From the human T2T-CHM13v2.0 reference genome, Homo sapiens, in NCBI RefSeq assembly GCF_009914755.1, contig NC_060932.1: a stretch of DNA of 64,000 nucleotides, one strand, 5' to 3'. The notes beneath the pieces were generated by a model that did no database searches, was not told where the DNA came from, and saw only the letters and a list, made by a program, of their open reading frames with translations. A program made the position numbers and the translations under genes. Shown in pieces: positions 6,513 through 9,500 of the stretch (the first letter of the stretch is position 1; the number at the start of each line of letters is the position of its first letter).

Positions 6513-9500
6513 AGGGGGTGGTTCCAAGATGGCCAAATAGGAACAGCTCCAGTCTACAGCTCCCAGCATGGTCGGAGCAGAAGACGGGTGATTTCTGCAT
6601 TTCCAACTGAGGAACACAGCTCCTCCCCAGCAATGGAACAAAGCTGGATGGAGAATGACTTTGACGAGTTGAGAGAAGAAGGCTTCAGACGATCAAACTT
6701 CTCCAAGCTAAAGGAGGAAGTTCGAACCCATCACAAAGAAGCTAAAAACCTTGAAAAAAGATTAGACGAATGGAAAACTAGAATAATCAACATAGAGAAG
6801 TCCTTAAATGACCTGATGGAGCTGAAAAACATGGCAGGAGAACTACATGATGAATGCAAAAGCTTCAGTAGCCAATTCGATCAACTGGAAAAAGGGTATC
6901 AGTGATTGAAGATGAAATGAATGAAATGAAGCGAGAAGAGAAGTTTAGAGAAAAAAAGAGTGAAAAGAAACAAACAAAGCCTCCAAGAAATATGGGACTA
7001 TGTGAAAAGACCAAATCTACGTCCGATTGGTGTACCTGAAAGTGATGGGGAGAATGGAACCAAGTTGGAAAACACTCTGCAGGATATTATCCAGGAGAAC
7101 TTCCCCAATCTAGCAAGGCAGGCCAACATTCAAATTCAGGAAATACAGAGAACGCCACAAAGATACCCCTTGAGGAGAGCAACTCCAAGACACGTAATTG
7201 TCAGATTCACCAAAGTTGAAATGAAGGAAAAAATGTTAAGGGCAGCCAGAGAGAAAGGTCGGGTTACCCTCAAAGGGAAGCCCATCAGACTAACAGCGGA
7301 TCTCTCAAAAGAACCTCTACAAGCCAGAAGACAGTGGGGGCCAATATTCAACATTCTTAAAGAAAAGAATTTTCAACCCAGAATTTCATATCCAGCCAAA
7401 CTAAGCTTCATAAGTGAAGGAGAAATAAAATCCTTTACAGACAAGCAAATGCTGAGAGATTCTGTCACCACCAGGCCTGCCCTAAAAGAGCTCCTGAAGG
7501 AAGCACTAAACATGGAAAGGAATAACCAGTACCAGCCACTGCAAAAGGATGCCAAATTGTAAAGACCATTGAGGCTAGGAAGAAACTGCATCAACTAACA
7601 AGCAAAATAACCAGCTAACATCATAATGACAGGATCAAATTCACACATAACAATATTAACCTTAAATGTAAATGGGCTATATGCTCCAATTAAAAGACAC
7701 AGACTGGCAAACTGGATAAAGAGTCAAGACCCATCAGTGTCCTGTATTCAGGAGACCCATCTCATGTGCAGAGACACACATGGGCTCAAAATAAAGGGAT
7801 GGAGGAAGATCTACCAAGCAAATGGAAAACAAAAAAAGGAAGGGGTTGCAATCCTAGTCTCTGATAAAACAGACTTTAAACCAACAAAGATCAAAAGAGA
7901 CAAAGAAGGGCATTACATCATGGTAAAGGGATCAATTCAACAAGAAGAGCTAACTATCCTAAATATATATGCACCCAATACGGGAGCACCCAGATTCATA
8001 AAGCAAATCCTGAGTGACCTACAAAGAGACTTAGACTCCCACACAATAATAATGGGAGACTTTAACACCCCACTGTCAACATTAGACAGATCAACGAGAC
8101 AGAAAGTTAACAAGGATATCCAGGAATTGAACTCAGCTCTGCACCAAGCGGACCTAACAGACATCTACAGAACTCGCCACCCCAAATCAACAGAATATAC
8201 ATTCTTCTCAGCACCATATCACACATATTCCAAAATTGACCACATAGTTGCAGGTAAAGCACTCCTCAGCAAATGTAAAAGAACAGAAATTATAACAAAC
8301 TGTCTCTCAGACCACAGTGCAATCAAACTACAACTCAGGATTAAGAAACTCACTCAAAACCGCTCAACTACATGGAAACTCAACAACCTGCTCCTGAATG
8401 ACTACTGGGTACATAACGAAATGAAGGCAGAAATAAAGATGTTCTTTGAAACCAATGAGAACAAAGACACAACATACCAGAATCTCTGGGACACATTTAA
8501 AGCAGTGTGTAGAGGGAAACTTATAGCACTAAATGCCCACAAGAGAAAGCAGGAAAGATCTAAAATTGACACCCTAACATCACAATTAAAAGAACTAGAG
8601 AAGCAGAAGCAAACACATTCAAAAGCTAGCAGAAGGCAAGAAATAACTAAGATCAGAGCAGAACTGAAGGAGATAGAGACACAAAAAACCCTTCAAAAAA
8701 ATCAATGAATCCAGGAACTGGTTTTTTGAAAAGATCAACAAAATTGATAGCCTGCTAGCAAGACTAACAAAGAAGAAAAGAGAGAAGAATCAAATAGATG
8801 CAATAAAATATGACAAAGGGGATATCACCACCGATCCCACAGAAATACAGACTACCATCAGAGAATACTATAAACACCTCTACACAAATAAACTAGGAAA
8901 TCTAGAAGAAATGGATAAACTCCTGGACACATACACCCTCCCAAGACTAAACCAGGAAGAAGTTAAATCCCTGAATAGACCAATAACAGGCTCTGAAATT
9001 GAGGCAATAATAGCCTACCAACCAAAAAAAGTCCAGGACCAGTTGGATTCACAGCCGAATTCTACCAGAGGTACAAGGAGGAGTTGGTACCATTCCTTCT
9101 GAAACTATTCCAATCAACAGAAAAAGAGGGAATCCTCCCTAACTCATTTTATGAGGCCAGAATCATCCTGATATCAAAGTCTGGCAGAGACACAATGGAA
9201 AAAGAATTTTAGACCAATATCCCTGATGAACATTGATGCAAAAATCCTCAATAAAATACTGGCAAACTGAATCCAGCAGCACATCAAAAAGCTTATCCAC
9301 CATGATCAAGTGGGCTTCATCCCTGGAATGCAAAGCTGGTTCAACATACGCAAATCAATAAATGTAATCCAGCATATAAACAGACCCAAAGACAAAAACC
9401 ACATCATTATCTCAATAGATGCAGAAAAGGACTTTGACAAAATTCAACTGCCCTTCATGCTAAAAACTCTCAATAAATTAGGTATTGATAGGAAGTATCT

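What the first reader, a model, noticed from the sequence alone, without database searches (positions are those of the whole stretch)
6513..6660. Spliced integrated L1 (SpIRE, donor ~97 joined to ORF1 acceptor ~976)
Seen: 98 nt after the L1 start, ...TTCCAACTGAG joins GAACACAGCTCC (6611/6612). The unspliced L1 in this window shows the removed ends: ACTGAG|GTACC (GT 50074-75) and CTCCAAAG|GATCAC (AG 51407-08). The deletion is thus a precise GT-AG intron removing most of the 5'UTR promoter and the ORF1 start codon, within an intact 17-bp TSD. Known: such elements are described as SpIREs; the 5'UTR/ORF1 class is uncommon and lacks full-length ORF1p. Inference: it was mobilised with ORF1p supplied in trans or a truncated ORF1p, and was dead on arrival.
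Basis: partly seen in the sequence, partly recalled or inferred. Interest (0 to 1): 0.75.

Follow-up and report, generated by a model that had tools for sequence, protein, structure and literature searches.

The report
Uncatalogued spliced L1 in RSPO2 intron
This is a dead LINE-1 copy in an RSPO2 intron that lacks exactly the GT-AG stretch found in its intact relatives, so it was likely copied from a spliced RNA; it is an unlisted member of a known class (SpIRE97/976), and it is one of three L1s that likely inserted one after another at the same cut site.

Summary
Confirmed. After 98 nt of L1 5'UTR...ACTGAG joins GAACAC... (6611/6612). In its closest unspliced genomic relatives the missing piece is about 994 nt, starts with GT in 24 of 25 and ends with AG in 23 of 25. 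The element is otherwise full length (about 5.1 kb), with a poly(A) and identical 17-bp TSDs. The same junction occurs at 31 or more T2T loci. All 11 SpIRE97/976 of Larson 2018 are among them; this locus and 19 others are not in that list. The spliced copies do not form one clade (p-AU 0.00014), so splicing likely happened repeatedly and the copies did not multiply. Additional finding: the target motif occurs four times, so three L1s of increasing youth likely used one nick. Verdict: new member of a known class; orthologues untested.

The parts
6496..6512 (+). Left 17-bp TSD of the SpIRE; its first 12 bp are also the right TSD of the younger L1 (A)
   Evidence: identical to 11650-11666; 12 bp shared with 4269-4280
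6513..6513 (+). One extra A between the TSD and the G-run that starts the L1 (likely untemplated)
   Evidence: absent after the right TSD
6514..6611 (+). Exon 1: first 98 nt of the L1 5'UTR, ending at the splice donor
   Evidence: aligns to the 5' end of 25 of 29 closest unspliced relatives
6612..7562 (+). ORF1 remnant starting at the acceptor, 66 nt after the lost AUG; broken into pieces of 90 aa (6633-6905) and 113 aa (7221-7562)
   Evidence: ATG at -66/-67 from the acceptor in 3 of 3 relatives examined; ORF list
7626..11641 (+). ORF2 (broken; longest ATG-started piece 360 aa, 7626-8708) and 3'UTR
11642..11649 (+). Short poly(A) tail of the SpIRE
11650..11666 (+). Right 17-bp TSD; made of L1 C's 11-bp left TSD (11650-11660) plus the first 6 bases of L1 C
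   Evidence: genomic L1 3' ends align from query base 1 = 11661
11661..11776 (+). L1 C: about 100-nt 5'-truncated 3' end of an older L1 with poly(A); first occupant of the site
   Evidence: best other copies 89-93%
11777..11787 (+). Right 11-bp TSD of L1 C (original target)
4269..4280 (+). Left 12-bp TSD of L1 A, preceded by TTTT; regenerated endonuclease site (TCTT/A on the bottom strand)
4281..6495 (+). L1 A: younger 5'-inverted L1 (4283-4645 antisense, 4643 onward sense); likely last insertion at the site
   Evidence: nearest genomic copies 96-97% against 92-93% for the SpIRE
50074..51408 (+). Comparator only: the GT...AG segment (1,335 nt) still present in the older unspliced L1 of the window

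Best explanation
This L1 lacks exactly the GT-AG segment that its intact relatives carry between 5'UTR base 98 and ORF1 codon 22, so it was likely reverse-transcribed from a spliced L1 mRNA and is predicted to have been dead on arrival. Shown here: the joint; the GT and AG ends in relatives; the loss of the ORF1 AUG; full 3' length, poly(A), TSD and a TCTT/A-type nick; recurrence of the joint; no single clade of spliced copies. Inferred: a full-length L1 of about L1PA5 age was transcribed, and the spliceosome used the 5'UTR donor and the ORF1 acceptor. ORF2p was made from the spliced RNA, working ORF1p came in trans from another L1 (by analogy with Larson's L1.3 assays), and TPRT placed the copy at a site already used by an older L1. 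With most of the promoter and the ORF1 start gone it would not have jumped again. A younger L1 later inserted at the nick regenerated by its left TSD.
For: Junction and relatives. 31 loci carry the joint; 29 were fetched, 28 of 29 gave gap 0, and the other is Larson's clone 11 with too little exon 1 to align. 14 of 14 anchored hits are precise, against about 2,900-3,000 other possible deletions with 3 nt or more of microhomology in the same range (3 relatives). One clade is rejected for 27 spliced vs 29 unspliced rows (p-AU 0.00014; long rows L025 and L027 left out) and for 12 similar-age spliced vs 29 unspliced rows with CpG columns masked (p-AU 0.0026). The nearest row to each of those 12 is unspliced. 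Of 12 unlisted loci checked, 10 have an L1 3' end at the expected distance and 7 show clear, different TSDs of 9-20 bp. Published junction, truncated ORF1p and trans requirement.
Against: AG|G microhomology makes the single locus ambiguous. No orthologue could be read. The first tree has a well-supported 11-row all-spliced clade and a 3-row all-spliced clade. The unspliced rows were chosen for closeness to this copy, so those age classes had no unspliced comparators. The 3-row clade is explained by age; the 11-row one was not retested. Raw shared doubletons among spliced rows were 30 against 13 expected, falling to 30 vs 26.9 after weighting by mutation load, and 17 vs 12.7 without L014. The trans-ORF1p step rests on L1.3 in HeLa cells.
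Confidence: 0.93

Rival explanations
1. A full-length L1 inserted and later lost the segment by a DNA deletion at the AG|G microhomology, or the reverse transcriptase skipped it by a template jump.
For: 3-nt microhomology at the joint; the sequences after donor and acceptor look alike, most in older L1s.
Against: About 2,900-3,000 equally good microhomology joints exist in range, yet 14 of 14 anchored hits use this one; 31 loci share it; the spliced RNA is reported from cells.
Confidence: 0.04
2. The copy descends from a spliced source element that stayed mobile (for example driven by a host promoter, with ORF1p in trans), so the unlisted loci are a hidden sub-family.
For: More copies than catalogued (31 vs 11); raw doubleton excess; two all-spliced clades.
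Against: One clade rejected; no spliced pair closer than 4.2% at non-CpG sites, and this copy's nearest rows are unspliced at 3.9-4.0%; it shares at most 1 doubleton with any row; the two oldest spliced copies are 10.1% apart, as far as from an unspliced old L1 (10.4-11.1%).
Confidence: 0.02
3. The joint was copied into a resident full-length L1 by gene conversion from a spliced cDNA or another SpIRE.
For: It would also give a precise joint; not directly excluded.
Against: The 5' and 3' ends give the same age (92-95% and 92-93% to nearest copies), and the full-length L1 at C1:30.30 Mb is among the top hits for both ends; no SpIRE donor is especially close.
Confidence: 0.01

Closest known systems
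SpIRE97/976 (5'UTR/ORF1 spliced integrated retrotransposed element; Larson et al. 2018, PMC5860796, after Belancio 2006 and 2008)
   Same: Same donor and acceptor, same 66-nt loss of the ORF1 start, similar length (about 5.13 kb vs 5,064-5,232 for 10 of the 11 listed), TSD, poly(A), TCTT/A nick, and antisense to the host gene as most intronic SpIREs are.
   Different: Not among the 11 listed (none on chr8). Likely older than most of them: ORF1 is 89.6% identical to a listed PA2 copy, against 91.8-92.2% for three of the four listed PA4 copies (88.7% for the fourth). The lost intron is about 994 nt, not 878.
SpIRE97/622, 97/790 and 97/853 (intra-5'UTR SpIREs)
   Same: Same donor; the 97/622 class is also undercounted (187 pattern hits at up to 2 mismatches, none fetched, vs 116 published).
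   Different: They keep ORF1 whole and can move once in cis; this one loses the ORF1 AUG.
Repeated use of one L1 endonuclease site (NF1, APC, F9, BTK; PMC3219598) and tandem Alu insertions (El-Sawy and Deininger 2005; title seen only in reference lists)
   Same: Independent L1-EN insertions at an identical nick.
   Different: The disease cases are different people's alleles; here three L1s of different ages are stacked on one chromosome, each TSD copying the start of the previous one.

Membership tests
SpIRE97/976 | 5'UTR joined at the donor before G98U99 | tested here: met
   98-nt exon 1; GT follows in 24 of 25 relatives
SpIRE97/976 | Joined to the ORF1 acceptor after A974G975, 66 nt into ORF1 | tested here: met
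   AG in 23 of 25 relatives; ATG at -66/-67 in 3 of 3; same joint as Larson S1 Data clones
SpIRE97/976 | TPRT hallmarks: TSD of about 6-25 bp, poly(A), EN site | tested here: met
   17-bp TSD, A-tail, TCTT/A site
SpIRE97/976 | More than 95% identity to the L1.3 junction probe (Larson's search cut-off, operational) | tested here: inconclusive
   L1.3 itself was not in hand; 90 of 100 against a listed PA2 copy as a stand-in. Four listed PA4 copies also score below 95, and one unlisted locus scores 96, so the cut-off explains the miss only in part
SpIRE97/976 | L1PA1-L1PA6 age | tested here: inconclusive
   No RepeatMasker or consensus library; about L1PA5 is inferred from tree position, intron length and 93-95% nearest copies
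SpIRE97/976 | Inserted already spliced (no intact orthologous allele) | not testable with these tools
   No other primate genome is held
SpIRE97/976 | Weak promoter, truncated non-functional ORF1p, needs ORF1p in trans | not testable with these tools
   Shown for L1.3 in Larson 2018; here only the loss of the AUG and the broken ORFs are seen

The most novel reading that the evidence does not exclude
The 5'UTR/ORF1 SpIRE class is about three times larger than catalogued (31 or more vs 11) and reaches into L1s older than L1PA6: two copies are as diverged as the window's old L1 with its 1.3-kb intron. Trans rescue of ORF1-less spliced L1 RNA would then have recurred independently over most of ape and Old World monkey history. 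This member also sits in a site cut at the same base by three L1s of different ages, a natural model target for asking what makes an L1 endonuclease site hot.
Probability: 0.7. Interest if true: 0.4.

Novelty: new member of a known kind. Interest (0 to 1): 0.27.

Why it matters
The locus itself is a fossil with no shown effect on RSPO2. Its value is as data. Each SpIRE97/976 likely records a germline event in which an L1 RNA without working ORF1p was rescued in trans, so a fuller count by subfamily would measure how leaky cis-preference was through primate history. The census suggests the 2018 catalogue undercounts older SpIREs (31 vs 11 for 97/976; 187 unverified hits vs 116 for 97/622). The stacked triple insertion gives one defined target to test for unusual endonuclease preference.

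Tried and rejected
A spliced master lineage was rejected. Order C then A then B (SpIRE inserted in A's tail with a 24-bp TSD) is allowed by the shared A-run but disfavoured, because A is younger (96-97% vs 92-93% to nearest copies). That C is a 3' transduction of the SpIRE was rejected: it lies outside the right TSD and has its own 11-bp TSD. I first read the 5-bp gap at C's start as a private deletion; many genomic copies align from base 1 without that gap, so it is likely a trait of an older subfamily. Full-length sequences of the other loci were not read; only 5' parts (29 loci) and 3' ends (12 loci). Two of those 12 (L028, L034) showed no L1 3' end at the expected distance, and three gave no clear TSD. 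Belancio 2006, Belancio 2008 and a third id tried for Khan 2006 were not held, so their lists and supplements may bear on whether this locus was noted. Searches for later SpIRE catalogues, an RSPO2 intronic L1 and stacked L1 insertions showed nothing on this locus in the listings. PMC2912911 had nothing on same-site reuse. Earlier findings of the scan could not be consulted.

Full report
Observation. The window holds an L1 whose first 98 nt (6514-6611) run straight into ORF1 sequence at 6612. That comparator is an older subfamily, so I took the 29 genomic L1s closest to this ORF1 (30 loci fetched of 40 scored, one being the element itself). Of the 29, 25 keep exon 1. GT follows it in 24 of 25, AG precedes the acceptor in 23 of 25, both in 22 of 25, and the gap has a median of 994 nt (range 763-1000). 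The ORF1 AUG lies 66-67 nt before the acceptor in 3 of 3 relatives examined, matching the 66-nt ORF1 loss described for SpIRE97/976. The rest of the element is full length, ends in a short poly(A), and is flanked by identical 17-bp copies at 6496-6512 and 11650-11666. Both ORFs are now broken.

Splicing or deletion. Donor and acceptor share AG|G, so this locus alone is ambiguous; recurrence settles it. A junction pattern gave 132 hits at up to 3 mismatches, 100 of them listed. All 28 hits at up to 2 mismatches and 2 of the 72 listed 3-mismatch hits read as joints; the others read as unspliced acceptors, and 32 were not shown. The reversed control gave 0. A gapped pattern that does not fix the joint gave 14 hits, all at the same joint, one of them new. 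That makes 31 loci, a lower bound. I fetched 29 of the 31: 28 of 29 align with gap 0, and the other has too little exon 1 to align. In three relatives, about 2,900-3,000 other deletions with 3 nt or more of microhomology are possible in the same range. A DNA-repair or template-jump origin would not be expected to pick one joint repeatedly.

Catalogue status. Larson et al. 2018 (PMC5860796) list 11 SpIRE97/976, on chromosomes 14, 3, 12, 1, 6, 6, 4, X, 12, 2 and 15, none on 8, and RSPO2 does not occur in the supplements searched. I saw the abstract, Results part 1, sections 13, 15 and 21, Discussion part 1, Supporting information part 1, further passages, the 97-976 rows of S1 Table, and S1 Data passages with long runs cut. 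All 11 match loci in my census by their flanks, leaving 20 unlisted, this one included. Their probe was built on L1.3 with a 95% cut-off. This joint scores 90 of 100 against a listed PA2 copy, but four listed PA4 copies also fall under 95 and one unlisted locus scores 96, so the cut-off is only part of the explanation. The undercount looks general: a 97/622 pattern gave 187 hits (none fetched) against 116 published. Of 12 unlisted loci whose 3' ends I fetched, 10 have an L1 end at the expected distance and 7 have clear and different TSDs. The Belancio papers could not be read; Larson states that their ten are included in the 11.

Dead end or lineage. One clade of spliced copies is rejected: p-AU 0.00014 for 27 vs 29 rows (two long rows dropped) and 0.0026 for 12 similar-age copies with CpG columns masked. 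This copy's nearest rows are unspliced (3.9-4.0%). Results against this reading: the first tree has an 11-row and a 3-row all-spliced clade, and raw doubletons among spliced rows were 30 vs 13 expected. The unspliced set was picked for closeness to this copy, which leaves those age classes without comparators and shortens unspliced branches. After weighting by mutation load the excess is 30 vs 26.9, or 17 vs 12.7 without L014. The two oldest spliced copies are 10.1% apart, as far as from the window's unspliced old L1 (10.4-11.1%). The 11-row younger clade was not retested.

Age. No repeat library was available, so labels are inferred. The copy lies deeper in the tree than Larson's PA4-labelled copies (branch support moderate), and its nearest copies are 92-95% identical. 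Its lost intron is close to the L1.3 intron plus the 129-bp ZNF93 segment (878 + 129). About L1PA5 fits, a family active in the human-rhesus ancestor (PMC7110667, passages). L030 and L072 resemble the window's old L1 and may be older than L1PA6; that label is not verified.

A stacked site. An 11-bp motif occurs four times in the window, all between 4269 and 11787, and never on the other strand. The copies bracket three L1s: C (11661-11776, a roughly 100-nt old 3' end, 11-bp TSD), the SpIRE (17-bp TSD), and A (4281-6495, 5'-inverted, 12-bp TSD). All three TSDs start at the same base, after TTTT in the leftmost copy (TCTT/A on the cut strand, a site type in Larson's table). The SpIRE's TSD contains the first 6 bases of C, which are L1 sequence, so C came first. 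A is likely last because its nearest copies are 96-97% identical against 92-93% for the SpIRE; the C figure (89-93% over about 100 nt) is a weak age estimate. Each insertion leaves the target intact on its left, which explains why reuse is possible but not why it happened three times. Same-site reuse is known from NF1, APC, F9 and BTK (PMC3219598, passages). A paper on tandem Alu insertions exists, of which I saw only the title in reference lists. I did not measure how common triple stacks are.

Mechanism and context. Most likely a full-length L1 transcript was spliced from the 5'UTR donor to the ORF1 acceptor, made ORF2p, borrowed ORF1p in trans, and integrated by TPRT. Splice geometry, TPRT hallmarks, recurrence and non-monophyly are shown here. 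The trans step and the weak promoter come from L1.3 experiments. By the hub's annotation the element lies in an RSPO2 intron, antisense to the gene, outside the listed enhancer and silencers. The L1 antisense promoter (position recalled, about 400-600 of the 5'UTR) would fall in the lost segment, so a chimeric RSPO2 transcript from it is not expected. No effect on RSPO2 is shown.

Verdict. Real and correctly read; a new member of a described class. Interest 0.27, most of it from the larger and older census and from the triple use of one nick.

Noticed in passing
window 4269-11787: Three L1s of different ages stacked head to tail, all TSDs (11, 17 and 12 bp) starting at the same base; likely order C, SpIRE, A.
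   Followed up: yes
window 4283-4645 and 4643-6495: L1 A has a twin-priming-type 5' inversion: the inverted part matches SpIRE positions 9458-9820 and the sense part starts at 9824, so only about 3 nt are lost at the switch.
   Followed up: partly
genome-wide: 187 hits for the SpIRE97/622 joint at up to 2 mismatches against 116 published; many carry the older-type donor flank. None fetched.
   Followed up: no
L030 (C7:96.06 Mb), L072 (C5:87.68 Mb), L074 (C9:15.69 Mb): The oldest 97/976-type joints; L030 and L072 are as diverged as the window's old L1 and may predate L1PA6.
   Followed up: partly
L025 (C1:172.59 Mb): Keeps only 13 nt of exon 1, with what looks like antisense L1 sequence upstream and a long tree branch; possibly an inverted SpIRE.
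   Followed up: no
window about 49976-57990: Older near-full-length L1 upstream of RSPO2, interrupted by an Alu at about 51575 and followed by inverted and repeated 3' pieces (55869-57990).
   Followed up: no
window 6633-6635: An in-frame ATG 21 nt after the acceptor, where many relatives read ACG; likely CpG decay after insertion, opening a 90-aa ORF1 piece.
   Followed up: no
G000 C1:60650543 and C6:160951060: Partial matches that extend 8-17 nt across the joint; not fetched and not counted.
   Followed up: no
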